Virus record (IMG/VR): IMGVR_UViG_3300022888_000583
DNA: 64,000 nucleotides
Strand: one strand, 5' to 3'
Origin: a virus
The notes beneath the pieces are model-generated. The model did not search any database, had not been told where the DNA came from, and worked only from the letters and a program-made list of their open reading frames with translations. This document shows, piece by piece, positions 19,375 to 33,774 of the stretch (its first letter is position 1; each line of letters opens with the position of its first letter). The translations under genes were made by a program, and so were the position numbers.

Positions 19375-19377
19375 ATT

Positions 19378-20282: not shown

Positions 20283-20300
20283 TTTCTGTCTCCTTTTGTG

Positions 20301-21845: not shown

Positions 21846-21846
21846 T

Positions 21847-22068: not shown

Positions 22069-22071
22069 AAT

Positions 22072-22638
22072 TTAGTCCCATAATGCATAAAAATTGTCTT
22101 TGAATAAATCAAAGGCCTTATCATGCTTTTCTTTACTAATAATTTCACAAGTATTTTTATCGCTATAATGTTTTTTCATGTGATCTGGCAATTTTGCATA
22201 ATCCGTATCGAATATTGCAAATCCATTTACCATTTTTTCCGCCTCTTCAAAACCAGCAATCATTTCATCCAATGTATCTAACCAAGCTTGAAATCCATCA
22301 TCCCGTTCTTTTTTTGTAGCGTCCGCTCCAACAAATGTTGAAGGTGCCCCATGTGTATCTTTTCTTAATTCTTTAAGGGGAGGAAGTATCACTTTAATAA
22401 AATGATAATCCAAGCTCCAAGATGCCGTATCGTCATAACCTCTAATTGCTCTCTGCAATGGACGTTTGATATACGTTCTGTATGGTGCATTATTGAAAAA
22501 TCTATATACTGGCCAATATGTGTGATCAGTAATAGCATCCCAAATTTTGACAATCACTTTCCTGTCCGCCTTTTCTTGTTTCCAGCGAGCTTCCATTTCT
22601 TCAAATGTTTCAGCTTTATTTAATTTTCTTTTGGTCAT
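22072..22638 (-). CDS. hypothetical protein (188 aa)
   Basis: ORF. Confidence 0.45.
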   Translation of the reverse strand: MTKRKLNKAETFEEMEARWKQEKADRKVIVKIWDAITDHTYWPVYRFFNNAPYRTYIKRPLQRAIRGYDDTASWSLDYHFIKVILPPLKELRKDTHGAPSTFVGADATKKERDDGFQAWLDTLDEMIAGFEEAEKMVNGFAIFDTDYAKLPDHMKKHYSDKNTCEIISKEKHDKAFDLFKDNFYALWD

Positions 22639-22655
22639 AATTTTATCCTTTTTAG

Positions 22656-22727
22656 AGCTCTTAAACGGTTACGATCCGATGCTTTCAGATTACGAAACTG
22701 ATGTACTACCGATTATACTATAAGAGC
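22656..22727 (-). tRNA. tRNA-Thr(CGT)
   Basis: Acceptor GCTCTTA/TAAGAGC; anticodon loop TTCGTAA; T-loop ATCGTAA. Confidence 0.55.
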
Positions 22728-22734
22728 ATTTGTG

Positions 22735-22807
22735 TCCTGCCGTGTGGAATCGAACCACAGTCACACCCATACCAAAGGTGTATTCTAACCTTCTAAACTA
22801 CAGCAGG
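22735..22807 (-). tRNA. tRNA-Thr(GGT)
   Basis: Acceptor CCTGCTG/CGGCAGG; anticodon loop TTGGTAT; T-arm TGTGGTTCGATTCCACA. Confidence 0.65.
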
Positions 22808-22810
22808 TTT

Positions 22811-23074
22811 TTACTTACCAACTTTCATATCAAAATTGGCGATTAAATTTTTCACTTTTAGAGGTTCCTCATGCATACCATCTAGAATATAAAATTTATT
22901 CAAAGTAGCTTTCTCGCCCATCATTTTTTGAAGCTTCACAGCTATTTCAAATAGTGTCTCATCATCGACTTCAAAATCAGCATTTATATCTACACAATAT
23001 GTAAACAGAAGTGCTTCAATTATTGCATTCATTTCAACCTTATTTAACTTGTCCACAGTAACCTCCATTACCAA
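22811..23074 (-). CDS. hypothetical protein (87 aa)
   Basis: ORF. Confidence 0.4.
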   Translation of the reverse strand: MVMEVTVDKLNKVEMNAIIEALLFTYCVDINADFEVDDETLFEIAVKLQKMMGEKATLNKFYILDGMHEEPLKVKNLIANFDMKVGK

Positions 23075-23607
23075 ATAATTCGTTTAACATATAAAGCATC
23101 CAAATTGTCTGTAAGCCATACCCCATTTTCAGCTAAATAAAACGGGTGACCATCATTGTGCAATTTTAATGCGTCGATAACCAATATGGCCGGATCAGAA
23201 CCTCTTCGTTTCCCAACCACTTCAGCGGTATTTTCATCCGCTGATAAATGTACATATTGTCTATTACCTTTATTCAATCCATTTTTCATAATCGAATCGA
23301 TATTTTTAGGCGGTGTCCCATGATACAATATTTCCGGTGGAGCAATTGCTTGCAGTTTCAAATCTACTTCGATTGAATGACCTTGCATCGCTCTAACCTT
23401 TTCCCCAGTGATATCAAATGCGTATCTGATTTTTGGACCAGTACTCACTATTTCTTCTAACATTTCCATAGTAAATTTGCCAGTATCTAACAAATCTGAT
23501 ACATTGGCATATCCTTCAGCATCCAATGTAATATCGAATTGTTCTGGCTTGTGTCTCAATATGAGAGCTAGCAATTTACTTTTTTTAGTTAGATTAATTC
23601 CACTCAC
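23068..23607 (-). CDS. kptA: RNA 2'-phosphotransferase (Tpt1/KptA family)
   Basis: LRHKPEQFDITLDAEGYANVSDLL...MQGHS...LYHGT...YVHLS are KptA hallmarks; 179 aa. Confidence 0.65.
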   Translation of the reverse strand: MSGINLTKKSKLLALILRHKPEQFDITLDAEGYANVSDLLDTGKFTMEMLEEIVSTGPKIRYAFDITGEKVRAMQGHSIEVDLKLQAIAPPEILYHGTPPKNIDSIMKNGLNKGNRQYVHLSADENTAEVVGKRRGSDPAILVIDALKLHNDGHPFYLAENGVWLTDNLDALYVKRIIW

Positions 23608-23791
23608 GTAATTTTACTCCACATCTTGGGCAGTTTTTATTCCACACCGCTCTGGTTTCCATAAAGCTAGGTGATACCATTGTATATTCCTTGTGTCCAA
23701 ATATACGGCACCATAATTTTTTAAGCATTATTCTCTTTGTGCTCCTGCCTTTGGACTTCTTTTTTCTCATCATCTTCACGCTCTTTGGCAA
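23594..23791 (-). CDS. small zinc-ribbon protein (65 aa)
   Basis: CxxC pairs. Confidence 0.3.
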   Translation of the reverse strand: MPKSVKMMRKKKSKGRSTKRIMLKKLWCRIFGHKEYTMVSPSFMETRAVWNKNCPRCGVKLREWN

Positions 23792-23954
23792 TCCGAGTGT
23801 ATTCCTTCATTGTGAATCTGGCAACCCAATTGCCATCTTGATTCTTTTCTTGATGAACGGTAACATCATCTCTAATAATTTCCCTATACCGTTGACCTTC
23901 ACTTATAACTTTAACTTCGCCCATAACTTTTCCTTATAATTTAATTTTGATTTG

Positions 23955-24029
23955 TACGAGTGGCAGGATTTGAACCGACGCTTGCCCAGGATGTCGACCT
24001 GGAGCTCTACCAGACTGAGCTACACCCGC
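23955..24029 (-). tRNA. tRNA-Val(GAC) as read (C33 in the loop is unusual)
   Basis: Acceptor GCGGGTG/CACTCGT; D-arm GCTCAGTCTGGTAGAGC; anticodon loop TCGACAT. Confidence 0.5.
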
Positions 24030-24034
24030 ATTTT

Positions 24035-24262
24035 TTACTCTTGTCCTATTGGACCTTCATATAAAATTTTACTGTCACCAGACCCACGCCAAGTAGTCTT
24101 TTCAACTCTGACCATATCGGTGTCAGTTTCCTTGTCATAGTAAGCGTAACATCTGATTGCTCCGCTCCATGATGCTGTATATGTTTCTATACCTGAATTC
24201 TTAGAACCACCACGACTGGTTTGTCCTCTATTACCTTGTACTGTGCCATAAAATTGTGACAT
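24035..24262 (-). CDS. hypothetical protein (75 aa; GGAGG Shine-Dalgarno; the track ORF over-extends across tRNAs)
   Basis: Internal ATG with a strong Shine-Dalgarno; the upstream part of ORF 24035..24400 overlaps two tRNAs. Confidence 0.4.
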   Translation of the reverse strand: MSQFYGTVQGNRGQTSRGGSKNSGIETYTASWSGAIRCYAYYDKETDTDMVRVEKTTWRGSGDSKILYEGPIGQE

Positions 24263-24282
24263 ATAACCTCCATTTTGTTTAG

Positions 24283-24354
24283 CTGATTCATAGGGATTCG
24301 AACCCCAACCTGACAGGCTCAGAACCTGCGATGCTACCGTTACACCATGAATCA
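24283..24354 (-). tRNA. tRNA-Gln(CTG)
   Basis: Anticodon loop TTCTGAG; T-arm TGGGGTTCGAATCCCTA. Confidence 0.6.
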
Positions 24355-24361
24355 ATTTTTG

Positions 24362-24433
24362 CAGCGGCACCCAGAATCGAACTGGAATCACCGGGTTCAA
24401 AGCCCAGTATAATCAACCGTTATACTATACCGC
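24362..24433 (-). tRNA. tRNA-Gln(TTG)
   Basis: Anticodon loop CTTTGAA; T-loop TTCGATT. Confidence 0.55.
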
Positions 24434-24455
24434 TATTCTTATAATAAGTATCGGG

Positions 24456-24800
24456 TTATTCACCCAAAAGTTGTTCTTTTTTTTCAATGTACTCAAACAG
24501 TTCGGTATAATTGTCATCATAATTATATGGACACGCTTCAATAAATTCCAATGGTTTTGCAGTACCATATCGATCATTTTCATCCCAGTGAATTTCACCG
24601 TCTAAAAATCTATCACCAAATTTATATCGTATTCCATAGAACTGTGTTTTAAATCTACCGTCACCTTTGATACAAACACCGTAACCAAAGTTACGACCGT
24701 GAATCTTATAAAATCCACCGTGGACACATTCTTCTATTGTTATCCACTCGTTAATATGTTCTGCTCTCATTTTTCTTATCCTTTTAATTTGTAGGCCCAC
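24456..24800 (-). CDS. hypothetical protein (114 aa)
   Basis: ORF. Confidence 0.45.
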   Translation of the reverse strand: MGLQIKRIRKMRAEHINEWITIEECVHGGFYKIHGRNFGYGVCIKGDGRFKTQFYGIRYKFGDRFLDGEIHWDENDRYGTAKPLEFIEACPYNYDDNYTELFEYIEKKEQLLGE

Positions 24801-24931
24801 AGGGTAATGATCCCAGTTCTACGGTTTAAAAGACCGTTGCTTCACCATTAAAGCTTTAGGCCCAAATTGATTGGTAGAGCTACCCAATCGGCTTTGATAC
24901 AATCTGGGGCTCTATCTCCCATGATCTCCAC

Positions 24932-25135
24932 CTAATTTCTATCTTTACATTGATACTTGCGGTATTCCTTCCAGCTTCTTTTCCGGTGGAATTTATTATA
25001 TGCATTACAGCCCCGATGTGGGTGACATAATGTACAATATCCTTCATCCATTGCTACTTTAAGTCGGTGGATTTTATTGAATAGTGGACTGTTATCAGTC
25101 CAATCATATTCATAATACGTTATTGATTTCATCAT
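24932..25135 (-). CDS. Cys/His-rich small protein (67 aa)
   Basis: C-x2-C and H-x-x-x-C pattern. Confidence 0.4.
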   Translation of the reverse strand: MMKSITYYEYDWTDNSPLFNKIHRLKVAMDEGYCTLCHPHRGCNAYNKFHRKRSWKEYRKYQCKDRN

Positions 25136-25196
25136 AGTTCTCCTTGTTAGGTTACTATGATGCTGTTCCTTTTTTCATATCAATTCCCTTTTGTCA

Positions 25197-25246
25197 ATAC
25201 CTGAAGATACAAGATTATTCTCACAAAGTCAAGCGTTATTTTAATT
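25197..25246 (-). promoter_or_regulatory. copy 5 of the promoter/leader motif
   Basis: ATACCTGAAGATACAAGATTATTCTCACAAAGTCAAGCGTTATTTTAA. Confidence 0.55.
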
Positions 25247-25512
25247 TAATTTCCTGTAAGCGGGGTTCTGTCCTTTAAACTTGCCATTGACCTATTTGCA
25301 TCAACCTTGCTATTATAGAATTGCTCACCTTCTAAGCTATTTTGAATTACATCCTCACCAGTACGAACGACTATTTCGTGTCTTTCAGGGTTTCTGGTTT
25401 GGCATGATTACTACAAACCCTTTTTCTTTACTCATGCCCTAACAGCTTTAACATACAGTCTCCTGAGTTAAGCAACGATGACCCGACTTTCCTCTCCGTA
25501 GAGCGACAAGTC
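25245..25512 (-). ncRNA. rnpB: candidate minimal RNase P RNA (~270 nt)
   Basis: Minus strand carries GGAGAGGAAAGTCGGGTC (P4 5' strand, compare GAGGAAAGTCCGGGCTCC) and GGACAGAACCCCGCTTACAGG (compare ACAGAACCCGGCTTATCGG) with a compensating single-nt deletion on both P4 strands. The 5' TTTTAATTTCTG and 3' CAGGAAATTAAA can form P1. The region is ORF-free. Confidence 0.45.
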
Positions 25513-25527
25513 AGAAATTAAAATGTG

Positions 25528-25610
25528 AGGAAGGTAGAAGAATCGAACTCCTGCCCGTAAGGACACCCAAGGGTTCAAACCTTGTTGCCGGCCATTCAGC
25601 GGTACCTTCC
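25528..25610 (-). tRNA. tRNA-Ser(TGA), type II
   Basis: Acceptor GGAAGGT/ACCTTCC; anticodon loop TTTGAAC (anticodon UGA reads UCA); long variable arm. Confidence 0.6.
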
Positions 25611-25615
25611 ATTTG

Positions 25616-26041
25616 TTAAATTATATTTATATCATATATCCGTTTTTCTATAATTAATGAATCGAGTTGAATAGAAACATCAATAGAATCGATGTCAAAA
25701 TGAATAGAATCATACCACAGATCAACCCGCCATTGATAATCCAATTCCAAACTATCACATTGTGCTTCTTGGCGGCCATACAATAACCAATAATAATTAA
25801 TATTATCATCGGAATATTCTTTAACATGTGCCGTTGTTGCATGAATTGATTTATTTACATTTATAATTTCAAATGAAATTCTATACATAAGTGTTTGTTC
25901 ACCGTACCATTCTGAACTTACAATGAAATATTCAGTAGTATCGGTAATTATCGGATAAATAATGTCTTCAGTAATACATGGTTCTCCACATGACATTATT
26001 AACATTATAATTATTAATATTAGACTTAATTTTTGCAACAT
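25616..26041 (-). CDS. putative lipoprotein (141 aa)
   Basis: Signal peptide with MSCGEPC lipobox-like site. Confidence 0.5.
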   Translation of the reverse strand: MLQKLSLILIIIMLIMSCGEPCITEDIIYPIITDTTEYFIVSSEWYGEQTLMYRISFEIINVNKSIHATTAHVKEYSDDNINYYWLLYGRQEAQCDSLELDYQWRVDLWYDSIHFDIDSIDVSIQLDSLIIEKRIYDINII

Positions 26042-26164
26042 AATTTTATCCCCTTCTTTCCAATTGTCATGTCGTCTGTTGCAACATGTACTTAGAACAT
26101 GTCTTAATTTTGACGATATTTAGACACGTTATTCGCTCATGTCTATATCTTAGACATGTTATTG

Positions 26165-26253
26165 TACTCCCAGCTGGACTTGAACCAACATCTCGACTTT
26201 ATCAGAATCTGACCTGTTTATAAGACAGGGGCTTTACATTAAGCTATGGGAGC
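26165..26253 (-). tRNA. type II tRNA (23-nt variable region); anticodon loop CTTATAA reads UAU; identity unclear
   Basis: Acceptor GCTCCCA/TGGGAGT; T-arm GTTGGTTCAAGTCCAGC; 89 nt. Confidence 0.4.
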
Positions 26254-26258
26254 ATGTG

Positions 26259-26333
26259 TACTCTCGGCAGGACTCGAACCTGCAACCTTTTGGGTCGAAA
26301 CCAAGAACTCTATTCCAGTTGAGCTACGAGAGC
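26259..26333 (-). tRNA. tRNA-Arg(TCG)
   Basis: Anticodon loop TTTCGAC; T-arm GCAGGTTCGAGTCCTGC. Confidence 0.6.
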
Positions 26334-26338
26334 ATGTG

Positions 26339-26409
26339 TACTGGATGGGGGAATTGAACCCGCGCCTTCTCCATGTAAAAGAGAAATTCTACCATTAAAC
26401 TAATCCAGC
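26339..26409 (-). tRNA. tRNA-Val(TAC)
   Basis: Anticodon loop TTTACAT; T-loop TTCAATT. Confidence 0.5.
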
Positions 26410-26415
26410 GTGTTG

Positions 26416-26487
26416 TGCTCCAGAGCAGACTTGAACTGCCATTCTTGGTATATCAGACCAAAGTTCTACCGTTGAACTACTGGAGAA
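26416..26487 (-). tRNA. tRNA-Ile(GAT)
   Basis: Anticodon loop CTGATAT; T-arm GGCAGTTCAAGTCTGCT. Confidence 0.55.
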
Positions 26488-26493
26488 TGTATG

Positions 26494-26567
26494 TACCTCG
26501 AGTTGGAATTGAACCAACGACCTTTGGTTTATCAGACCAACGCTCTAACCAACTGAGCTACCGAGAT
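26494..26567 (-). tRNA. tRNA-Ile(GAT), second copy with a different body
   Basis: D-arm GCTCAGTTGGTTAGAGC; anticodon loop CTGATAA. Confidence 0.55.
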
Positions 26568-26657
26568 AGGTGCGGACTCATGCGGTGTTTTGGGGGAAAC
26601 TTTGCACAAGCCCTAAAAATTGATGTAAGTTGTGTAGTGATAACGAGATACATCTAA

Positions 26658-26739
26658 TGTCGCAGTGGGGAGACTTGAACTCCCGAGTTGCCGAATATGA
26701 GCCGACACTTACACGCCTGTCTCACTGCGAAAATTGTGA
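26658..26739 (-). ncRNA. tRNA-like element (good T-arm and acceptor, no canonical anticodon or D arms)
   Basis: T-arm GGGAGTTCAAGTCTCCC and acceptor CGCAGTG/CACTGCG; ~70 nt. Confidence 0.25.
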
Positions 26740-26876
26740 CTGGAATTTCGTTTGTAACCGAAGTGCACTTCATCATTACAATTGGCCGTTTCTCCCGATT
26801 CATTGTACGGCATTGATTCTAGGGTTATTCCGATTAAATGATAATTGTACCTATACCATTTAAAGTTGTCACATAG

Positions 26877-26949
26877 CGGCCTAAGCCAGATTCGAACTAG
26901 CAACGCGAGGTACTTCACACCTCCGCTCTACCATTGGAGCTATTAGGCC
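26877..26949 (-). tRNA. tRNA-Phe(GAA)
   Basis: Acceptor GGCCTAA/TTAGGCC; anticodon loop GTGAAGT. Confidence 0.7.
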
Positions 26950-26963
26950 ATATTTAATTTTTG

Positions 26964-27045
26964 TCCCGTTAGATGGAGTCGAACCAACATTGTCCATAGA
27001 CGACGGCTTTACAGGCCGCGGGGCATCCACTTGCCCAATAACGGG
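26964..27045 (-). tRNA. tRNA-Tyr(GTA), type II
   Basis: Acceptor CCCGTTA/TAACGGG; anticodon loop CTGTAAA; long variable arm. Confidence 0.65.
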
Positions 27046-27050
27046 TTGTG

Positions 27051-27124
27051 TACTCCCACAGGGATTCGAACCCCGACTAAAAGCTTAGAAGGCTCTTGTG
27101 CTAATCCTGTTACACTATGGGAGC
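27051..27124 (-). tRNA. tRNA-Arg(TCT)
   Basis: Anticodon loop CTTCTAA; T-arm CGGGGTTCGAATCCCTG. Confidence 0.65.
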
Positions 27125-27129
27125 AGTGC

Positions 27130-27315
27130 TTAATCTTTAAACTTGAACCATATTCTTCGGCCCACTTCGATGGTTGCACCGATTGAAATCATTGCCCCAG
27201 CCATAACAAGACCGTGAGACATTAAAGACAATCCAGCGATAAAGTACAATACAAATCTCAATGCTCCGAAATATGTAAATTCCCTATCTATTGCGTATCG
27301 TTCATCTACTGTCAT
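27130..27315 (-). CDS. small hydrophobic membrane protein (61 aa)
   Basis: Track ORF; two predicted TM segments. Confidence 0.3.
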   Translation of the reverse strand: MTVDERYAIDREFTYFGALRFVLYFIAGLSLMSHGLVMAGAMISIGATIEVGRRIWFKFKD

Positions 27316-27342
27316 TTTAATAACCCTTTCTTTTTAAATTTT

Positions 27343-27415
27343 GTACACCCGGTAGGTTACGATCCTACGACCTTGAGTTTAAGAGACTCCTGCTCTGCCA
27401 ACTGAGCTACGGGTG
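27343..27415 (-). tRNA. tRNA-Lys(CTT)
   Basis: Anticodon loop CTCTTAA; unusual T-loop ATCGTAA. Confidence 0.55.
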
Positions 27416-27423
27416 CGTTTGTG

Positions 27424-27497
27424 CAGGGGTATCAGGATTCGAACCCGATCTTCATGGTTTTGGAGACCATCGTGCTACCGTTAAACACTATACCCCT
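27424..27497 (-). tRNA. tRNA-Trp(CCA)
   Basis: Acceptor AGGGGTA/TACCCCT; anticodon loop CTCCAAA. Confidence 0.65.
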
Positions 27498-27504
27498 ATG
27501 TATG

Positions 27505-27579
27505 TAGTCCCCCAGGGAGTCGAACCCTGACATTGAACGGGTCTAAGCCGCACGCCTCTACCAGTTGGGCCAGAGGACC
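27505..27579 (-). tRNA. tRNA with anticodon UAG (Leu-type) but a short variable arm (type I), A73
   Basis: Anticodon loop CTTAGAC; T-arm CAGGGTTCGACTCCCTG; 6-nt variable region. Confidence 0.45.
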
Positions 27580-27593
27580 ATTATTTGTTTTTG

Positions 27594-27666
27594 TAGCATT
27601 GGTGAGATTCGAACTCACACTGGACGATTTTTGAAACCGCTTTCTCTGCCGTTGGAATACAATGCC
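27594..27666 (-). tRNA. tRNA with anticodon CAA (Leu-type) but a short variable arm (type I), A73
   Basis: Anticodon loop TTCAAAA; T-arm GTGAGTTCGAATCTCAC. Confidence 0.45.
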
Positions 27667-27689
27667 ATTTACCTAATTTTAATTTTTGA

Positions 27690-27778
27690 TTGTGGACACA
27701 ATGGGAATCGAACCCATTACGATGTTATTCTAATTTTAAATAAGTGGAAATTGAATTTTGATCGTATCCGATATGTCC
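27690..27778 (-). ncRNA. tRNA-like with a ~40-nt AT-rich insertion (intron-bearing tRNA or degenerate)
   Basis: T-arm ATGGGTTCGATTCCCAT and acceptor GGACATA/TGTGTCC; body not canonical. Confidence 0.2.
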
Positions 27779-27779
27779 T

Positions 27780-28690
27780 TGGTAGGGTTGAGATTATACC
27801 CTTTATAGTATCCCTTTGGGAAGATTATTTATTCCTTCCTGTGTCCACGACAACCCGCTAGGGTCTATACTCTTGCGAGTAGTAAGATACCAGTCCCAGT
27901 AGGTTTAGCCTACCACTCTTATCGTTCAGGTTATCTCCACAGTTACTTATTGCTATTCAATCTTGCAGGACTGACTAAGGTTTTAACACCACTAGAACTT
28001 TCGCCATAAAACATCCGCACCTTGTGAGTTTGGTTGCCCCCGATTCATCCGAAGATGTCAGGGATTAGGGAATTTTGCTCCTAAACGCTGTCGGTCTTTT
28101 TACTTTTCAGTGAAGTGGGAATTGAACCCACACCAGTTCGCTTAGAATGCGAATTGCCTAACCAATGAGGCGATTCATGATGTATTGTGGATATTAGAAT
28201 CTGCGCCGACCAGCGATGGCGTCCTCCCTTTTGAGGAACACATACCATTCAGATTCATACCATTTCCTGGATAAGGAATTTTAGCGGTTCTTAATTATTT
28301 CCAGTTTCACCCTGCGATGAAATGTTTAGTTATACATTACAATCCAGCGTTTTACCACTCATGCAATGCTTTCCCTAGAAAATACACATAATTACTAGAA
28401 TCAAGCCCTCAGTATCCCTACCTTGAACAAGACGCTCTGGCAATCCCTATTGGATTTCTCCTCACCGGCTGTTCCACGACAACCAGATACAATCCTCTCG
28501 TTCCTGGTGGAATCTGAGGTTCATATGTTAAACCATTGTATAGATGTCTCCTATTACTAAGAGCGGCTGTTCTACGAGCCCTTTAGTCCCACTTTCGTAG
28601 GGTTATCTTCATCACCCGAAGGTGAAGCGAATCCATACATCCGAATTCTATAATTTCAAAAAACTTTGACACTCTTTCGTGTCGATGATC
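27780..28690 (-). ncRNA. ~900-nt ORF-free structured region downstream of a degenerate promoter copy; candidate large ncRNA, intron or split tRNA
   Basis: No ORF of 60 aa or more, even allowing TGA as sense. Contains a UUCG tetraloop hairpin (CACCTTCGGGTG), GNRA hairpins (CCTACGAAAGTGGG; GACACGAAAGAGTGTC) and a tRNA-like T-arm (GTGGGTTCAATTCCCAC) at 28112-28135. Confidence 0.3.
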
Positions 28691-28728
28691 AATATACAAG
28701 ATTTAAATGTAAAAGTCAAGCGTTTTTT
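28691..28728 (-). promoter_or_regulatory. copy 6 (degenerate) of the promoter motif
   Basis: AATATACAAGATTTAAATGTAAAAGTCAAGCGTTTTTTT. Confidence 0.4.
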
Positions 28729-28829
28729 TCAATTTTCTTAACTTTTTTTCTCATTCCGTATTTGTATATATATATTAGGTTATAAGCCCAAACACCATTT
28801 TTATTTCAAAAAAGTGATTTTATTTTAAG

Positions 28830-28904
28830 TACTCCCAGAAGGATTTGAACCTCCGACCCCTTGGTTCGTAGCCAAGTGCTCTATTCCAGCTGAGCTATGG
28901 GAGC
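28830..28904 (-). tRNA. tRNA-Arg(ACG)
   Basis: Anticodon loop CTACGAA; T-arm GGAGGTTCAAATCCTTC. Confidence 0.65.
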
Positions 28905-29066
28905 GTGATTTTTACTTTTTGTACTGTATATTTCCACATGGAATTTTTATCATTTTGTTCCTTAACGTACGCTTTAGCGTCCGGTTTGGATTCGTATGCC
29001 GAGTCAATTTCTGAATCTCGGTTTCCATATTTTAATTTACTTAGTACCACATATACAATTTTCATT

Positions 29067-29198
29067 TTACCAGCCTTTTTTGTGTTTAGATTTACGATTA
29101 TATTTAGTCTTATCCTTAAACACTTTCCGAGTTGGAATTGTGGTACGCATCTCAGGTCGGATGCGATTTTTGTCTTTTCTTATTAGTTTCTTTTTCAT
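29067..29198 (-). CDS. very basic small protein (43 aa, or 27 aa from an internal Met)
   Basis: MKKKLIRKDKNRIRPEMRTTIPTRKVFKDKTKYNRKSKHKKGW immediately after motif copy 7. Confidence 0.3.
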   Translation of the reverse strand: MKKKLIRKDKNRIRPEMRTTIPTRKVFKDKTKYNRKSKHKKGW

Positions 29199-29244
29199 AC
29201 CTGAAGATACAAGATTATATTGACAAAGTCAAGCGTTATTTTCG
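29195..29244 (-). promoter_or_regulatory. copy 7 of the promoter/leader motif
   Basis: Full consensus copy. Confidence 0.55.
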
Positions 29245-29264
29245 CTTATTTGAAAATAATTTTG

Positions 29265-29336
29265 ATCCCCCGACCGGCCACGATCCGATACCAAAGCTTT
29301 ACAAGAGCCTTATTCTGCCAATTAAACTACAGGGGA
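29265..29336 (-). tRNA. tRNA-Thr(TGT) (unusual T-loop ATCGTGG)
   Basis: Anticodon loop CTTGTAA. Confidence 0.5.
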
Positions 29337-29348
29337 ATTTGTATTGCT

Positions 29349-29432
29349 CATGCGGTAGGATTCGAACCTACGACGTCGCTCTCGCGAAACAGATTAACAG
29401 TCTGCCACCATCGGCCTCTCGGTCACACATGA
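29349..29432 (-). tRNA. type II tRNA; anticodon loop CTGTTAA reads GUU; identity unclear
   Basis: Acceptor TCATGTG/CGCATGA; variable-arm hairpin TCGCGAGAGCGA; T-arm GTAGGTTCGAATCCTAC. Confidence 0.4.
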
Positions 29433-29434
29433 AT

Positions 29435-30010
29435 TTATATTTTTCTATAAGATTCTATTAATCCCATTTTAAACAATTCTTTTCCAGTAAGAATTTCCAA
29501 TTCAAGTGGGAATCATTCCCACTTAGCTTCATCTTTTGGAGTCTTATAACCCTTTACTTCAACATATTGTTTTTGTTTAATCAAATAAAAATCTGGAGTA
29601 TATCTATGCCCTTTATTTTCATATTCATAATAAAAATTTTCTTTTGGTCTTCTTCATAGGATATCATTATCATCTAATCATTTGGCATAATTTAATTCTC
29701 ATTTGCCATATAATTTAACCATACCATTGCATTTACTATCATATAAATGTGTTCTACTTTTGGAAAATGAATTATGTCATGTTCCATCTTTAATTTTTTC
29801 ATTTATAGTTTTTCGTATTTTTGATTTGGTTTCATCAGATACATTTTGTCTAGGATGACCATCGGTTACTTTTTTTATCCAATTATTTCTATTTGGATTT
29901 GATTTGCAACTAACACTATGCCCTCCTAATTTTCTACCATCATCAAATTTCATTCCACAATGTTTACAAATGCTATTACCAGACCCCTTAAATCTTTTTG
30001 CATTATCCAT
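29435..30010 (-). CDS. zinc-finger / HNH-like endonuclease-type protein (~191 aa) with 4 in-frame TGA, embedded in the tRNA array
   Basis: N-terminus CKHCGMKF...GGHSVSCKSNPNRNNWIKK; the frame runs through TGA at 29777, 29699, 29678, 29654 and 29513 to TAA at 29435. Confidence 0.45.
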
Positions 30011-30089
30011 ATAAATTTCCTCTTTATTATAAGTATTAAAGAATACAAAAATATACAGACTAACGCTCTAAATAGTTTTAAAATTTTTG

Positions 30090-30161
30090 CTCCGACGACA
30101 AGATTTGAACTTGCATTACCCTGTTTAACAAACAGACGCTTTACCCATTAGCTACGTCGGA
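30090..30161 (-). tRNA. tRNA-Asn(GTT)
   Basis: Acceptor TCCGACG/CGTCGGA; anticodon loop TTGTTAA. Confidence 0.65.
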
Positions 30162-30204
30162 AATTGGATTGGGTTTTTGAATAGAACCCTTCTGTAAACT
30201 ATTA

Positions 30205-30281
30205 TGGGGTGACTAGCGGGATTCGAACCCGCACTATCTGGGTCACAGCCGGACGTGCTAACCATTATCACTATAGCCACC
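30205..30281 (-). tRNA. tRNA-His(GTG) with G-1 and an encoded CCA
   Basis: Extra 5' G pairs with C73; anticodon loop CTGTGAC; 3' CCA present. Confidence 0.65.
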
Positions 30282-30300
30282 ATGTATGTTTTTTTGTTTG

Positions 30301-30373
30301 AGTACACGGTCAGAATCGAACTGACGTCCTCCGGGTTTGCAATCCAGTGCCTATGCCTCTCAGCCACGTGTAC
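30301..30373 (-). tRNA. tRNA-Cys(GCA)
   Basis: Acceptor GTACACG/CGTGTAC; anticodon loop TTGCAAA. Confidence 0.5.
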
Positions 30374-30601
30374 ATTAATGGAAACCAATCTCTTTACTGA
30401 GCTACATTGCTTCTAGCTCCCCCGCCGAAACGGATCATCACTATAATGCAAAGACTGGAGTTGAACCAGTGACCACAAGTTTATCAGTCTGGTGCTCTTT
30501 TTAGGTTTCTCAATTGGATTCGAGGTAAGGAATTACACCTTTGTTTTTCTAATACAATGGTTCGTCAACCAAAGCATATACGCCTTTAACGCTCTCAAGT
30601 G

Positions 30602-30674
30602 TAGTTCCATAGGGGATCGAACCCTAATCTCGGGCTTGAGAAGCCCGTATCCTATCCGGTTAGACGATGGAACC
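30602..30674 (-). tRNA. tRNA-Glu(CTC)
   Basis: Anticodon stem CGGGC/GCCCG; loop TTCTCAA. Confidence 0.6.
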
Positions 30675-30680
30675 ATAATG

Positions 30681-30753
30681 TCGTCTATCGGGGAATCGAA
30701 CCCCGCTCTCAGCCTTGAAAGGGCTGTGACATAAACCGATAGTCCAATAGACG
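30681..30753 (-). tRNA. tRNA-Glu(TTC)
   Basis: Anticodon stem CAGCC/GGCTG; loop CTTTCAA. Confidence 0.6.
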
Positions 30754-30758
30754 CTGTG

Positions 30759-30833
30759 TAGCTCCAGAGGGGAACAATCCCTCTTCTCTGCCTTGAAAGG
30801 GCAGTATCCTGTATCATCCTAGACGATGGAGCC
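30759..30833 (-). tRNA. tRNA-Glu(TTC), second copy (T-loop ATTGTTC)
   Basis: Anticodon stem CTGCC/GGCAG; loop CTTTCAA. Confidence 0.5.
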
Positions 30834-30897
30834 AATTATAGAATTTTGTATCAAGTACGAGAATCTGCTTGTGGACAAATATCTATTAAAACCGCCG

Positions 30898-30968
30898 TGG
30901 GTCGTGAAGGAATCGAACCTCCATCCGTGGGGTTACAGTCCAGTATACTACCGTTGTACGAACGACCC
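30898..30968 (-). tRNA. tRNA, anticodon loop CTGTAAC (GUA?) with a weak anticodon stem; possible pseudo-tRNA
   Basis: Good acceptor GGGTCGT/ACGACCC and T-arm. Confidence 0.3.
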
Positions 30969-31027
30969 AAATTGTGAGAATTTTTAATTATATACCGCTC
31001 CCAGATTTTCTCTAACTGGCGGATTGT

Positions 31028-31100
31028 GGATACATGACGGCTTCGAACCCTCATCCTTCTGTTTGCAAAACAGATGCTTTCCCAATTAAGCTAATGACCC
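31028..31100 (-). tRNA. tRNA-Ala(TGC)-like with acceptor mismatches (no G3-U70); likely pseudo-tRNA
   Basis: Anticodon arm TCTGT-TTTGCAA-ACAGA. Confidence 0.3.
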
Positions 31101-31183
31101 GACTGCAAATTCTTTACAGGATAGTGCTAGACTGAAGGAACACCTTTGACCTATGATCACTTGATCTCCGGCTGTGTTACTTG

Positions 31184-31255
31184 TGGAGTTACTCGGTTAC
31201 GATCCGAGGACTTCTGGTTGCAAACCAGAGATTTTCCCGATTAAACTATAACCCC
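31184..31255 (-). tRNA. tRNA-Ala(TGC)
   Basis: Acceptor GGGGTTA/TAACTCC with G3-U70; anticodon loop TTTGCAA. Confidence 0.65.
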
Positions 31256-31261
31256 ATTGTG

Positions 31262-31333
31262 CGGAACTGATGGGTAACGATCCCACTTCCACGGCTTGAC
31301 AAGCCGTTGTCCATGCCTACTGACTCCAGTTCC
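31262..31333 (-). tRNA. tRNA-Asp(GTC)
   Basis: Anticodon stem ACGGC/GCCGT; loop TTGTCAA. Confidence 0.65.
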
Positions 31334-31557
31334 AGATATCCATTGTACTTCTGAATGTACCTTAAATTACCATTGTAATTATGATGCAGGATTGGCATCA
31401 GCGGTTTCGGTAAGTGAACCTGCTGAATATCGTATCACTTCTGTCGCAGTGACCAGACCTTGGTTAATTTCGACTCATATACCAAGAATGAACCGGAACG
31501 CTATGACCCCATATCGTCCCATAGGGAGTACGCTAGTACTATTTCAGATTTAGTGGC

Positions 31558-31625
31558 GGGGCCAGAAATCGCATCTGGAAACGTGAGCTTATGAGGCTCC
31601 GTGGCACTTAGCTCCCCGCAATGTA
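31558..31625 (-). ncRNA. small structured RNA / tRNA-like (possible CAU anticodon loop CTCATAA, reduced D-arm)
   Basis: Acceptor-like GCGGGGA...CCCCGC; T-arm-like CCAGATGCGATTTCTGG. Confidence 0.2.
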
Positions 31626-31629
31626 TATT

Positions 31630-31863
31630 TTAATATAATTGGTTTTTGTATAGTGCTCTATAACGAGTGGTGTCCCCGTCATTGATAATTGTGTATGTTC
31701 CATCGCTATCCGCTACAAGTTCCAATATCGGATCAACTTGTTCCAAGCTTTCCAATGCCGAATTATGAACTTGTTCTTCAGTATAACTTAGGAATAGGAA
31801 TGCGAAAATTACGGTAATCCATATTACCCGTGTCCAATGATTTTTTGTAATCTTAAACATCAA
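31630..31863 (-). CDS. small secreted/membrane protein (77 aa)
   Basis: Track ORF; hydrophobic N-terminus. Confidence 0.35.
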   Translation of the reverse strand: MMFKITKNHWTRVIWITVIFAFLFLSYTEEQVHNSALESLEQVDPILELVADSDGTYTIINDGDTTRYRALYKNQLY

Positions 31864-31869
31864 AAACCT

Positions 31870-32214
31870 CTAGTCGCAAAAGCATGACACTACATGGTCA
31901 ATGGTAACTGGCAGATGTAATTCTGCATCTGAATTATGGATAGCATTACTTGTGCGATATCCTTCTTCATAATATTCTTTTCTAGGAGAATACAATTCCC
32001 GTTCGATGTCAGCCTTAACTGTGGCCGAAACTTTATCCGTAGGAAACCACGCGTCCAAATCAATAATATTATATGAAGATGGATCGCTATGGCTCTGTGA
32101 AATTACCATTACTATCATTTTGTTACCTTTATTTTTTAGGAGTAAATTTATCACTAAAGATGTAATTGAAAGCCCAATCGCTTTCATATCTCCCAAGTGA
32201 TAATACAAGTACAA
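31870..32214 (-). CDS. hypothetical protein (114 aa)
   Basis: Track ORF. Confidence 0.35.
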   Translation of the reverse strand: MYLYYHLGDMKAIGLSITSLVINLLLKNKGNKMIVMVISQSHSDPSSYNIIDLDAWFPTDKVSATVKADIERELYSPRKEYYEEGYRTSNAIHNSDAELHLPVTIDHVVSCFCD

Positions 32215-32418
32215 GACCTTCGCCTATCAATAATATTCCATAAATGAAATATTTCCAATTTGTTGAAGCTTTTACATGTCGTCTAATTTTGTTACTCATT
32301 TTTTCCTTTTTAATTTTAATAGGAGCTATGAGGAAAGCATTTCACTTCCATCTGATTATTTCCGCAGTACCGAACTGTTTGATAACCCGCATTCTGTTAT
32401 ACTATCATAGCGTGTTTG

Positions 32419-32491
32419 GCGAGTACACCGGGATCGAACCGGCAACCTCCGGCGTGACAGGCCGGTGTGCTTCCACTTGCACCTCTACTCG
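32419..32491 (-). tRNA. tRNA-Asp(GTC), second copy, CCA encoded
   Basis: Anticodon stem CCGGC/GCCGG; loop CTGTCAC. Confidence 0.55.
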
Positions 32492-32708
32492 AGATAAGCT
32501 CATGTGGTTTACAAATCCACTTCTAAAACCAATGCATCAGTCTCCAAGTATAGAGCGATACTTAAAATCATTTTTTAAAAGAAGTGATTTTCAAACTTTG
32601 GTTACCTTCAGTTTCCTTGAAAACACCTTTCTTAGACCCAAGATGAATGGAAGGCCCCTAATTAACCCCTAGGAAGGCGGTGTTTACTGTCACCGCAGTG
32701 TAATTTGG

Positions 32709-32783
32709 AACGGGATATCAGATTCGAACTGATACTTTAAGATTGGAAGTCTCGCGTGCTAAGCCGTTAAACACTAATCCCGC
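32709..32783 (-). tRNA. tRNA-Gly(TCC)
   Basis: Anticodon loop CTTCCAA; T-arm ATCAGTTCGAATCTGAT. Confidence 0.6.
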
Positions 32784-32834
32784 ATTGGTCGGATTGGGAA
32801 CTTCTCCATAGTGGATAATTCCCGCTCCTGTTTG

Positions 32835-32908
32835 TACACCCGGTAGGCAACGATCCTACAACCTTGGGCTTAAAAGGCCCCTGCTCTGCCAAATTGAGCT
32901 ACGAGTGC
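32835..32908 (-). tRNA. tRNA-Lys(TTT)
   Basis: Anticodon loop CTTTTAA; T-loop ATCGTTG. Confidence 0.6.
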
Positions 32909-33136
32909 ATAAAATTTTTGGAGTAGATTTCCATTATCACCCTGCAGGAATGAAATGGTACTCCACGGTCACAAAAAGTTTGAGTGAGATTCGAACCCAC
33001 CAGCTTACTGTATATTAGTCAAATTGAAACCCTTCGAATTGTTTCAACCTGAGAATATTCAGTAGCATCTGCCCTACTGCATCCATTCCCGTTAACCACG
33101 CTTTTGTATAAATTTTTTGTCTGGGGTGCAGGAGTC

Positions 33137-33209
33137 GAACCTGCCAAAACCATGTTTCCAAAACACAGCCGCCACCCCGACTGTTACCCCAGTTATGTAG
33201 CCCCCAATT
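33137..33209 (-). tRNA. tRNA-Pro(TGG)
   Basis: Acceptor CTGGGGT/ACCCCAG; anticodon loop TTTGGAA. Confidence 0.55.
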
Positions 33210-33531
33210 AAGGGGACTACTATATGTCAAATAATCACACGAGATACCTCGTAGTAACTATTTTGTTTTTTTACTATTATACCCAACTGTCAAAAAACCG
33301 ATGTGGCTGTACAATCACTAACAGCTGTGTAACTTCCCGTCAATTGGGTGATGAGCCCAAGCTAGACTGACACAACGAAGGTCAGTCGGCGATTTACATT
33401 TTTCTCCAATCGCAAATTATATAAAAGTGCAGTGAGCTTTAGAATTCTCACATTTCCAGCTGAAAGGCCGGCGACTTACCCTTAGTCCATACACATTCTT
33501 TCAAAAATCTTAGAAACTTATTCCGTTTCTA

Positions 33532-33600
33532 TCATACCTGAAGATACAAGATTATATTGACAAAGTCAAGCGTTTTCTTTGATTATCTTCATTTATTTTT
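33532..33600 (-). promoter_or_regulatory. copy 8 of the promoter motif, with the extended upstream AAATAAATGAAGATAATCAAAGAAAACG element
   Basis: Full consensus; drives a ~300-nt non-coding leader into tRNA-Pro. Confidence 0.55.
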
Positions 33601-33630
33601 CAATAAGCCGAGAAACCTTTTCGTTTCTCA

Positions 33631-33690
33631 CATACCTGAAGATACAAGATAAAAATGACAAAGTCAAGCGTTTTCTTTGATTATCTTCAA
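33631..33690 (-). promoter_or_regulatory. copy 9 of the promoter motif (tandem with copy 8, ~100 nt apart)
   Basis: CATACCTGAAGATACAAGATAAAAATGACAAAGTCAAGCGTTTTCTTTGATTATCTTCA. Confidence 0.55.
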
Positions 33691-33699
33691 TTATTTTTG

Positions 33700-33774
33700 T
33701 ACCCGCCCCGAGGCTCGAACTCGGAACTACTGGATTTTAAGTCCAGTCCCTCTTTCCATTTGGGGTAGACGGGC
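33700..33774 (-). tRNA. tRNA with anticodon UAA (Leu-type), short variable arm (type I), A73
   Basis: Acceptor GCCCGTC/GGCGGGT; anticodon stem CTGGA/TCCAG; loop CTTAAAA; T-arm CCGAGTTCGAGCCTCGG. Confidence 0.55.

What the first reader, a model, noticed from the sequence alone, without database searches (positions are those of the whole stretch)
27780..28690. A 0.9-kb ORF-free structured region inside the tRNA array
Downstream of a degenerate copy of the promoter motif lies ~900 nt with no plausible ORF even allowing TGA as sense. It is rich in stable-RNA hallmarks: a UUCG tetraloop hairpin, several GNRA hairpins, and a tRNA T-arm plus acceptor 3' half (28105-28135) with no matching 5' half nearby. 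The pattern is compatible with an intron-containing (group I) tRNA, a large ncRNA, or decayed tRNAs.
Basis: seen in the sequence. Interest (0 to 1): 0.6.

Follow-up and report, generated by a model that had tools for sequence, protein, structure and literature searches.

The report
GOLLD RNA gene in phage tRNA array
The ORF-free 0.9 kb is a minus-strand gene for GOLLD RNA, a known giant phage non-coding RNA that self-assembles into a hollow RNA cage, here carrying a tRNA-like insert; it is a real but already described kind of element.

Summary
Window 27780-28690 has no plausible ORF and is a structured RNA gene on the minus strand. Rfam's GOLLD model (RF02032) matches 28257..27785 over its full length at 190.1 bits (gathering score 150, E 5e-52).

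The 390 nt upstream (about 28642-28258) is the GOLLD 5' domain, which Rfam does not model. It carries the same landmark motifs as 60 other GOLLD RNAs in viral contigs. It also shows 12 compensatory pair changes against its one known relative.

The "orphan T-arm" is a complete but poorly paired tRNA-Arg(UCU)-like cloverleaf (28180..28107). It sits in GOLLD's variable linker, as in Caulobacter phage phiCbK and mycobacterial tRNA arrays.

A full copy of the phage's 19-fold promoter motif (28722..28691) drives the gene. A conserved tRNA-like element (27778..27693) lies 6 nt after its 3' end, where other GOLLDs have a tRNA or a terminator.

No group I or II intron was found. The host genome looks like a large phage, with 41 tRNAs, a tmRNA, GroEL, Rnl1 and Tpt1.

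Verdict: a divergent new member of a known family. The function of the family is still unknown. Interest is low to moderate.

The parts
28691..28722 (-). Phage promoter of the GOLLD gene: CGCTTGACTTTTACATTTAAATCTTGTATATT, with -35 TTGACT at 28719-28714 and -10 TATATT at 28696-28691. The start site is inferred near 28684.
   Evidence: It is one of 19 copies of CGCTTGACWTT-N9-WTCTTGTATMTT in the window, where 0 are expected by chance, and it has 0 mismatches. The sigma-70-type scan gives 10 of 12. The copies are aligned. The start site itself is inferred, not shown.
28668..28683 (-). Small leader hairpin GACAC-GAAAGA-GUGUC followed by a U-run. It lies between the promoter and the first conserved GOLLD helix. 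Its role is unknown and it is not conserved in the relative.
   Evidence: The terminator-like scan flags it. This stretch aligns poorly with L124.
28258..28642 (-). GOLLD 5' domain, which the Rfam model does not cover. It begins with hairpin GGAU-GUAUGG-AUUC (28642-28629). A window-specific UUCG hairpin follows (28627-28607). Then comes AGAUAACCC / GAAA hairpin / GGGACUAAAGG (28608-28580), then GACAUCUAUACAAUG, then CGUGGAA, and further hairpins.
   Evidence: The motif AGATAACCC-N(4-9)-GGGACTAAAGG is found in 70 viral loci. All 60 full-length ones carry a GOLLD 3' domain at a fixed distance. The landmark motifs are collinear with 19 non-redundant GOLLD 5' domains. Against L124 there are 83 local pairs, 12 changed on both sides, versus 0-2 in slid controls.
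27785..28257 (-). GOLLD 3' domain, the universally conserved half of the family.
   Evidence: Rfam RF02032 scores 190.1 bits (gathering 150), E 5.4e-52, model positions 1-416 of 416, not truncated. It keeps 86 of 107 pairs of a consensus structure derived independently from 19 other GOLLDs, and 36 of those pairs are changed on both sides.
28107..28180 (-). tRNA-Arg(UCU)-like cloverleaf inserted in the A/U-rich variable linker of the 3' domain. This is the linker that is disordered and points into the cage in the solved GOLLD structure.
   Evidence: ARAGORN. Rfam tRNA gives 31.8 bits against a gathering score of 29. It lies in the unpaired insert of the GOLLD alignment. L124 has the same position and anticodon at 57.7 bits. 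It is not a copy of the free tRNA-Arg(UCU) at 27050-27124. The linker's location in the cage is from PMC12286853.
27693..27778 (-). tRNA-like element 6 nt after the GOLLD 3' end. It has a 7-bp acceptor stem, a canonical T-arm (GGGUUCGAUUCCC), and a long AU-rich arm ending in an 11-nt non-conserved loop where the anticodon arm should be. It is inferred to be an RNase P processing signal that sets the GOLLD 3' end.
   Evidence: Fold results. ARAGORN does not call it at default settings, and relaxed settings give inconsistent anticodons in the two relatives. The acceptor stem is kept by compensatory changes against L124. Rfam gives only a weak tmRNA-type hit, 16.4 bits. In 13 of 58 other GOLLD loci a tRNA starts 8-17 nt after the 3' end, and most of the rest have an intrinsic terminator there.

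Best explanation
Window 27785-28642 (minus strand) is a gene for a GOLLD RNA (Rfam RF02032), about 860-900 nt long, carried by a large tRNA-rich phage.

Shown here:
- The 3' half fits the GOLLD covariance model over its full length.
- The 5' half carries the family's landmark motifs and is held in shape by compensatory substitutions.
- A tRNA-Arg(UCU)-like cloverleaf sits in the variable linker.
- The gene lies directly behind a full copy of the phage's own promoter consensus.
- It is followed after 6 nt by a tRNA-like acceptor/T-arm element, not by a terminator.

Inferred from published work on other family members (env-38 and S. agalactiae GOLLD, cryo-EM): the transcript folds into two domains and self-assembles, without protein, into a closed homo-oligomeric cage of 12-14 copies. 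The 5' domains form the caps, the 3' domains form the ring, and the linker (here the tRNA-like module) points into the lumen.

Inferred from the anatomy here: the RNA is made from its own promoter as the first product of a polycistronic GOLLD-tRNA transcript. Its 3' end is released when RNase P cuts at the 5' side of the abutting tRNA-like element.

The biological role of the family is unknown. The most likely role is a lytic-phase RNA compartment or scaffold tied to the phage's tRNA and translation programme. In this phage the poorly paired embedded tRNA is more likely a stored or structural module than a working decoder.
For: Family fit and structure:
- GOLLD hit of 190.1 bits against a gathering score of 150, E 5e-52, full model.
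- 86 of 107 independently derived consensus pairs are kept, 36 by double changes.
- The long-range pseudoknot CGUUUAGG / CCUGAACG is kept. Its one difference from L124 (U.G to U-A) preserves pairing.
- The 5' motifs are shared with 60 full-length GOLLDs.
- 12 compensatory pairs in the 5' domain against L124, versus 0-2 in slid controls.

Conservation:
- The related contig IMGVR_UViG_3300031227_008087 has the same gene (191.6 bits), the same linker tRNA-Arg(UCU) and the same 3' tRNA-like element. Identity is 82% by blastn over about 1 kb and 88% mean column identity in the 1.3-kb MAFFT alignment.
- An identical copy is in metagenome contig Ga0209045_1003878.

Expression signals and context:
- Promoter copy with 0 mismatches among 19 copies, 0 expected by chance.
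- No terminator-like site follows the gene on the minus strand.
- tRNAs abut the 3' end of 13 of 58 other GOLLDs at 8-17 nt.
- Phage context: GroEL, NAPRTase, Rnl1 and Tpt1, plus 41 tRNAs and a tmRNA.

Precedents:
- phiCbK GOLLD with tRNA-Gly in the linker.
- Pseudo-tRNA inside mycobacterial GOLLD (PMC6582537).
- Cage structure and the inward-facing linker (PMC12286853; PMC12990946).
Against: - The GOLLD score (190 bits) is at the low end of the hits seen here (165-326 bits). About 20% of consensus 3'-domain pairs are not formed in a MAFFT-based mapping.
- The 5' domain is too divergent for a profile of the main group to detect it beyond one motif (E 0.042). Several main-group 5' helices appear broken in the joint alignment. 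Its cap geometry, and so its oligomeric state, may therefore differ.
- Only two sequence variants of this subtype exist in the collections searched, so the covariation evidence for the 5' domain is thin.
- Expression, transcript ends, RNase P cleavage and multimerisation are all untested for this sequence.
- The relative L124 lacks the promoter motif, so transcription from a dedicated promoter is not a conserved feature.
Confidence: 0.95

Rival explanations
1. The region is a tRNA gene interrupted by a group I (or group II) self-splicing intron. The T-arm and acceptor half at 28105-28135 would be the 3' exon.
For: Phage tRNA regions sometimes hold introns (general knowledge).
Against: A permissive Rfam search of 27500-29000 (E up to 1) gave no intron family hit. 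ARAGORN finds the complete cloverleaf locally at 28180..28107. The flanking sequence is fully accounted for by the GOLLD model.
Confidence: 0.01
2. The region is non-functional spacer made of decayed tRNA genes, or a dead GOLLD pseudogene.
For: Two tRNA-like pieces are degenerate. The linker tRNA scores 31.8 bits with two acceptor mismatches, and the 3' element has no usable anticodon arm. The GOLLD score is lower than for most other hits.
Against: The whole 0.9 kb is conserved with a relative that is about 75-80% identical in neighbouring genes. Substitutions in stems are compensatory: 12 in the 5' domain, and 36 double changes relative to the family consensus in the 3' domain. An intact consensus promoter sits in front.
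Confidence: 0.03
3. Functional rival, 'inhibited storage': the cage exists mainly to hold the embedded tRNA out of reach of processing enzymes and to release a working tRNA-Arg(UCU) when the cage opens.
For: The tRNA lies in the inward-facing linker. The review PMC12990946 proposes this idea for Mycolicibacterium GOLLD. The anticodon loop and T-loop are conserved between the two variants.
Against: None of 58 + 19 other GOLLDs sampled has a linker tRNA, so this cannot be the family's general role. The phage already has a well-formed free tRNA-Arg(UCU) at 27050-27124, scoring 60.2 bits. The window's copy has a poorly paired acceptor stem. In Mycobacterium the embedded pseudo-tRNA was not detectably expressed on its own (PMC6582537).
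Confidence: 0.1
4. The region encodes a protein read in an alternative genetic code.
Against: The longest open frames are 66-69 codons in code 11 or code 4. With TAG as sense the longest is 95 codons, and with TAA as sense 123 codons. Neighbouring genes give long ORFs with clear Pfam hits in the standard code.
Confidence: 0.005

Closest known systems
GOLLD RNA family (Rfam RF02032; Weinberg et al. 2009, Nature 462:656, cited from memory and from the reference list of PMC12286853; cryo-EM of env-38 GOLLD, PDB 9MEE, Kretsch et al. 2025)
   Same: The conserved 3' domain fits the covariance model end to end. It has a two-domain layout with a 5' domain of about 390 nt, an A/U-rich variable linker after the first 3'-domain helix, total length over 800 nt, and a phage origin next to tRNA genes.
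   Different: Its sequence is divergent: 190 bits against 227-326 for the four other complete viral hits scored. It has extra hairpins: a UUCG hairpin at 28627-28607, about 60 extra nt at the end of the 5' domain, and a bifurcated hairpin (GCAA and UAGC loops, 27880-27850) where the main group has one. The linker holds a tRNA-like cloverleaf instead of ~40 unstructured nt. The oligomeric state is unknown.
GOLLD of Caulobacter phage phiCbK (JX163858.1:105042-105528) and its relatives
   Same: A large (205-kb), tRNA-rich phage. Its GOLLD (165.3 bits) has an annotated tRNA, Gly-TCC, inside the linker at the equivalent place. A tmRNA gene is in the same genome.
   Different: The embedded tRNA is different (Gly, not Arg). 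In phiCbK the tmRNA is permuted and lies adjacent; here it is a standard one 23 kb away. blastn found no DNA similarity between the window's GOLLD region and anything in the phage collection, which includes phiCbK.
GOLLD in mycobacterial horizontally acquired tRNA arrays (PMC6582537; Morgado et al. 2020, RNA Biol 17:1001, not held in the library)
   Same: GOLLD lies inside a cluster of more than 30 tRNA genes, with tRNAs on both sides and a pseudo-tRNA predicted inside the GOLLD gene.
   Different: Those are in bacterial chromosomes (actinobacteria). This one is on a phage-like contig with its own promoter family. The embedded tRNA type differs (tRNA-Phe or pseudo-tRNA there).
ROOL RNA (rumen-originating, ornate, large)
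   Same: Works alike in outline: a large phage-borne RNA near tRNA islands that forms a protein-free cage with an internal disordered linker (PMC12286853).
   Different: Its sequence and fold are unrelated. There was no ROOL hit in the window.

Membership tests
GOLLD RNA (RF02032) | Covariance-model score at or above the curated gathering score (150 bits), over the whole model | tested here: met
   190.1 bits, E 5.4e-52, model 1-416 of 416, not truncated, mean posterior 0.92.
GOLLD RNA (RF02032) | The 3'-domain helices are kept by compensatory change, not by sequence identity alone | tested here: met
   86 of 107 pairs of an RNAalifold consensus built from 19 other GOLLDs are standard pairs in the window. 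36 of them differ on both sides from the commonest pair. The other members keep 96-100%, so this one is a divergent member.
GOLLD RNA (RF02032) | Long-range pseudoknot of the 3' domain ([[ ]] in the Rfam consensus) | tested here: met
   CGUUUAGG (28086-28079) pairs with CCUGAACG (27932-27925), giving 8 of 10 positions. The only difference from L124 is U.G to U-A.
GOLLD RNA (RF02032) | A structured 5' domain of roughly 350-420 nt preceding the 3' domain | tested here: met
   The landmark motifs are present in the same order as in 19 non-redundant GOLLD 5' domains: the first hairpin, AGAUAACCC-hairpin-GGGACUAAAGG, GACAnCUAnACAAnG, and CGUGGAA. There are 12 compensatory pairs against L124. Overall profile similarity to the main group is not significant (E 0.042), which fits the family's known variable 5' domain (PMC12990946).
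GOLLD RNA (RF02032) | A variable unpaired linker after the first 3'-domain helix, sometimes holding a tRNA | tested here: met
   The tRNA-Arg(UCU)-like cloverleaf at 28180..28107 falls in the unpaired insert between model positions about 64 and 131. phiCbK has the same arrangement.
GOLLD RNA (RF02032) | Phage or prophage location, usually near tRNA genes | tested here: met
   41 tRNAs and a tmRNA on the same strand. PHROG and Pfam hits to phage-type GroEL, Rnl1, CobS-like ATPase and Tpt1. Relatives are IMG/VR viral contigs.
GOLLD RNA (RF02032) | Protein-free assembly into a closed homo-oligomeric cage (12-14 copies) | not testable with these tools
   Known for env-38 and S. agalactiae GOLLD only. 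It needs in vitro transcription plus mass photometry or cryo-EM.
GOLLD RNA (RF02032) | Expression rising during lytic growth | not testable with these tools
   No transcript data are available. Only a consensus phage promoter is seen.
Group I / group II introns | A match to an intron covariance model, with tRNA exon halves flanking it | tested here: not met
   No intron family up to E = 1 in 27500-29000. The tRNA-like cloverleaf is contiguous.
tRNA (RF00005), for the linker insert | Cloverleaf scoring above the gathering score, with a paired acceptor stem | tested here: inconclusive
   31.8 bits against a gathering score of 29, matching only model positions 4-67. The acceptor stem has U.G plus two mismatches and the D stem has 3 bp. 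The L124 copy scores 57.7 bits. It is tRNA-like, but function as a decoder is doubtful.
tRNA / tmRNA, for the element at 27778..27693 | Score above the gathering score, and an anticodon arm or tag reading frame | tested here: not met
   tmRNA scores 16.4 bits against a gathering score of 47, and no tRNA hit was retained. ARAGORN default finds nothing. Relaxed runs give different 'anticodons' in the two relatives. Only the acceptor stem and T-arm are conserved.

The most novel reading that the evidence does not exclude
In this phage lineage GOLLD may be a tRNA-shaped device at two points, which would link the cage directly to tRNA-processing or tRNA-attack pathways.

First, the conserved acceptor/T-arm element 6 nt past the 3' end could be more than a cleavage signal. 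It might stay attached, or be cleaved, given a CCA end and charged, so that it couples cage production to RNase P and CCA-adding activity.

Second, the 12-14 inward-facing pseudo-tRNA-Arg(UCU) modules could serve as sequestered bait or a reserve against host anticodon nucleases. The phage also carries Rnl1 and Tpt1 RNA-repair enzymes.

This would give the first concrete functional handle on GOLLD. Nothing here tests it.
Probability: 0.07. Interest if true: 0.65.

Novelty: new member of a known kind. Interest (0 to 1): 0.25.

Why it matters
GOLLD is one of the largest bacterial and phage non-coding RNAs. It forms a protein-free nanocage larger than a ribosome, and its function is still unknown. 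This instance does not change that picture. It shows that the scan can recover such RNAs from raw sequence.

It adds a divergent subtype, from an uncultured large phage, with three features together: a dedicated consensus promoter, a tRNA-like module in the lumen-facing linker, and a tRNA-like element in place of a terminator.

The survey done here, in which GOLLD 3' ends are followed either by an intrinsic terminator or by a tRNA 8-17 nt away, supports the simple idea that tRNA-processing enzymes set the ends of the RNA when it lies in tRNA arrays.

For experiments, cultured phages with the same layout (phiCbK) are better material.

Tried and rejected
- blastn ('distant' mode) of the 1-kb region against 50,697 phage records found no match. 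The family is conserved in structure, not sequence.
- Single-sequence nhmmer against 120 pattern-selected viral loci found only 5 hits, all in the 3' domain. A profile of six 3' domains was needed.
- An nhmmer profile of the main-group 5' domain against the window gave E 0.042, at one motif only. So 5'-domain homology rests on collinear motifs and architecture, not on a significant profile score.
- RNAalifold on the joint 21-sequence 5' alignment showed the window and L124 breaking several main-group helices. I could not tell alignment error from real divergence. I did not build covariance models of the 5' domain because of calibration time.
- The metagenome scan for more members of this subtype returned only the two known variants plus 4 chance hits. 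The genome-contig scan returned nothing, so there is no host clue.
- I tried to map the env-38 cryo-EM residue numbers (linker 497-538, L21a 656-657) onto the window. The sequence recovered from the supplementary PDF was 816 nt, not 833, so the numbering is unreliable. Only the qualitative placement of the tRNA in the linker is used.
- ARAGORN with introns allowed, or with lowered thresholds, gave inconsistent calls on the 3' tRNA-like element. It was rejected as a real tRNA or intron-bearing tRNA.
- My first promoter pattern had a spacer one base too long and found nothing.
- Weinberg 2009 (PMC4140389) and Morgado 2020 (PMC7549688) are not held in the library.

Full report
**1. The observation**

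The stretch 27780-28690 has no plausible coding frame. The longest listed ORF is 55 aa. The longest stop-to-stop frames are 66 codons in the standard code and 69 with TGA as sense. Neighbouring genes give long ORFs with clear Pfam hits in the standard code.

- UUCG loops at 28620-28617 and 28053-28050.
- GNRA loops at 28596-28593 (GAAA), 28557-28554 (GUAA), 27876-27873 and 27966-27963 (both GCAA).

The region is richer in G+C than the window, 42.7% against 37.3%. It folds better than all 20 dinucleotide shuffles, z = -2.5. Three details need correcting: the strand, the tRNA 5' half and the promoter. They are covered in section 2.

**2. What it is**

*Rfam match.* A gathering-threshold Rfam scan of the whole window gives one non-tRNA, non-tmRNA hit. 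It is GOLLD (RF02032) at 28257..27785 on the minus strand: 190.1 bits against a gathering score of 150, E 5.4e-52, model positions 1-416 of 416. A permissive scan of 27500-29000 adds no intron, RNase P, 6S, OLE or ROOL match.

*The 3' domain.* The Rfam model covers only the conserved 3' half of GOLLD. As an independent check, I derived a consensus structure from the 3' domains of 19 other non-redundant GOLLDs. The window forms 86 of its 107 pairs, and 36 of those pairs are changed on both sides relative to the commonest pair. The 19 main-group members keep 96-100% (L124, like the window, keeps 81%), so this is a divergent but genuine member. The long-range pseudoknot (CGUUUAGG with CCUGAACG) is intact.

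*The 5' domain (about 28642-28258).* The motif AGATAACCC-N(4-9)-GGGACTAAAGG at 28608-28580 occurs in 70 IMG/VR loci. Every one of the 60 loci long enough to judge has a GOLLD 3' domain at a fixed distance downstream.

In an alignment of 21 non-redundant 5' domains, the window shares further landmarks in the same order:
- The opening hairpin GGCG-GUUUAG-CGUC. In the window it is GGAU-GUAUGG-AUUC, so two base pairs are swapped compensatorily.
- GACAnCUAnACAAnG.
- CGUGGAA.
- CAAUAGG.

The main group's 5' structure is well supported: 78 pairs, 40 of them with compensatory changes. The window's version is too divergent for a sequence profile to detect beyond one motif (E 0.042), and it breaks some main-group helices in the joint alignment. 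This fits the published description of GOLLD as having a conserved 3' domain and a variable 5' domain.

*Relatives.* Using the nearby Tpt1 gene as an anchor, I found a related viral contig, IMGVR_UViG_3300031227_008087. Its GOLLD scores 191.6 bits. The 1.3-kb regions align at 88% mean column identity; blastn gives 82% over about 1 kb. Flanking genes are about 75-80% identical.

In the 5' domain, 83 local pairs include 12 that changed on both sides, against 0-2 when the partners are slid by 1-3 columns. That structure was derived from these same two sequences, so the 100% pairing is by construction. Only the compensatory count carries weight.

A metagenome scan found one contig identical to the window (Ga0209045_1003878) and five identical to the relative. 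A scan of 185,579 species genomes found nothing. So only two variants of this subtype are known.

*The "orphan" tRNA half.* ARAGORN calls a full 74-nt tRNA-Arg(UCU) at 28180..28107. Its acceptor stem has U1.G72 and two mismatches, and its D stem has 3 bp. Rfam's tRNA model gives only 31.8 bits, matching positions 4-67.

It lies in the unpaired, A/U-rich insert of the GOLLD alignment. That is the variable linker, which in the env-38 cryo-EM structure is disordered and points into the cage. The relative has a tRNA-Arg(UCU) at the same place, scoring 57.7 bits.

It is not a copy of the phage's free tRNA-Arg(UCU) at 27050-27124, which scores 60.2 bits. The acceptor stems are unrelated, and only the anticodon loop and T-loop are shared.

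Linker tRNAs are uncommon. None of 58 + 19 other viral GOLLDs examined has one. They are documented, though:
- Caulobacter phage phiCbK has an annotated tRNA-Gly(TCC) inside its GOLLD, which scores 165.3 bits.
- Mycobacterial tRNA arrays hold a GOLLD with an internal pseudo-tRNA.
- Reviews note tRNAs embedded in J13/15.

*Transcription signals.* The window holds 19 copies of CGCTTGACWTT-N9-WTCTTGTATMTT, where none is expected by chance. The copy at 28722..28691 has no mismatch. It differs from the mRNA promoters only in having TATATT for TATCTT and in lacking the downstream CAGGTATGA block.

The relative lacks this motif. There the RNA may instead be co-transcribed with the upstream tRNA-Arg(ACG), or use a different promoter.

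No terminator-like site follows the gene on the minus strand. Instead, 6 nt after the model's last base, there is a conserved tRNA-like element (27778..27693). It has a 7-bp acceptor stem kept by compensatory changes, a canonical T-arm, and a long AU-rich arm with an 11-nt non-conserved loop.

Among 58 other GOLLDs, 13 have a tRNA (mostly Met-CAT) starting 8-17 nt after the 3' end. Most of the rest have a hairpin plus U-run there.

*Genome context.* All 41 tRNA genes and a tmRNA lie on the minus strand. The window also encodes GroEL, NAPRTase, an IMPDH/GMP-reductase-type enzyme, a CobS-like ATPase, T4-type RNA ligase 1 and Tpt1/KptA. The nearest phage records at protein level are an uncultured 484-kb phage and a Microcystis phage, at about 36% identity. 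This is an uncultured large phage.

**3. How it most likely works**

*Shown here:* gene identity, the two-domain architecture, the linker insert, the promoter, and the lack of a terminator.

*Inferred from solved structures of other members:* protein-free assembly into a closed 12- to 14-mer. The 5' domains form the caps, the 3' domains form the ring, and the linker (here a tRNA-like module) faces the lumen.

*Inferred from the anatomy here:* transcription runs from the dedicated promoter through GOLLD into the downstream tRNAs (Leu, Leu, Trp, Lys). RNase P cleavage at the tRNA-like element sets the GOLLD 3' end.

The biological role of the family remains unknown. Published ideas are encapsulation of cargo, tRNA storage and ribosome binding. 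The weak acceptor stem here and the redundant free tRNA-Arg(UCU) argue that the insert is not needed as a decoder.

**4. Comparison and novelty**

Every testable defining feature of GOLLD is met. Multimerisation and lytic-phase expression cannot be tested here. The layout of GOLLD plus a linker tRNA, inside a phage tRNA cluster with a tmRNA in the same genome, has a cultured precedent in phiCbK.

This is a new, divergent member of a known kind. What may be mildly new is descriptive: the terminator-or-tRNA dichotomy at GOLLD 3' ends, and a degenerate acceptor/T-arm element filling the tRNA position.

**5. Verdict**

Identity confidence is 0.95. Interest is 0.25.

Noticed in passing
window 27693-27778 (-): A conserved tRNA-like element 6 nt after the GOLLD 3' end. 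It has a 7-bp acceptor stem and a canonical T-arm but no usable anticodon arm, and ARAGORN does not call it at default settings. It is also present in L124, with compensatory changes in the acceptor stem.
   Followed up: partly
window 4238-4594 (-): A phage-borne tmRNA gene: Rfam 96.9 bits, ARAGORN tag peptide GTNYAYPVAA*. It lies 23 kb from GOLLD. phiCbK also has a tmRNA (a permuted one) right next to its GOLLD (L203 716-1034).
   Followed up: no
window 16585-33774 (-): 41 tRNA genes, all on the minus strand, covering most amino acids. They include duplicates and a rare tRNA-Ile(UAU).
   Followed up: no
window 26164-26253 and 29346-29432 (-): Unusually long tRNAs for their type: tRNA-Ile(TAT) at 90 nt and tRNA-Asn(GTT) at 87 nt. 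The long tRNA-Ile(TAT) is also present in L124 (4106-4197, 92 nt). They may have an extended variable arm or a small insertion.
   Followed up: no
window, 19 sites, e.g. 8630-8661, 29204-29235, 41921-41952, 54240-54271: A 32-nt phage promoter consensus, CGCTTGACTTTGTCAnnnnAATCTTGTATCTT, usually followed by CAGGTATGA. It occurs 19 times, where 0 are expected by chance, and is also conserved in the related contigs.
   Followed up: partly
window 23068-23607 (-) and 45913-46998 (-): RNA-repair-type enzymes in the same genome as the tRNA array: Tpt1/KptA RNA 2'-phosphotransferase (Pfam 148.9 bits) and a T4 Rnl1-type RNA ligase (PHROG 218.9 bits).
   Followed up: partly
L001-L120 (viral contigs with GOLLD), 130 nt downstream of each GOLLD: GOLLD 3' ends are followed either by an intrinsic-terminator-like hairpin plus U-run, or by a tRNA (mostly tRNA-Met CAT) starting 8-17 nt away (13 of 58). 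A few, such as L075, have only an acceptor/T-arm minihelix there.
   Followed up: partly
L103 11344-11427 (-): A bacterial small SRP RNA hit (42.3 bits, gathering 40) just upstream of a GOLLD gene on a viral contig.
   Followed up: no
window 27850-27880 (-): The main-group GOLLDs have one GCAA-capped hairpin before GUGGA. The window and L124 have two hairpins there, ACUC-GCAA-GAGU and ACCC-UAGC-GGGU. The second contains the palindrome CUAG, which might form a symmetric loop-loop contact between copies. This is speculative.
   Followed up: no
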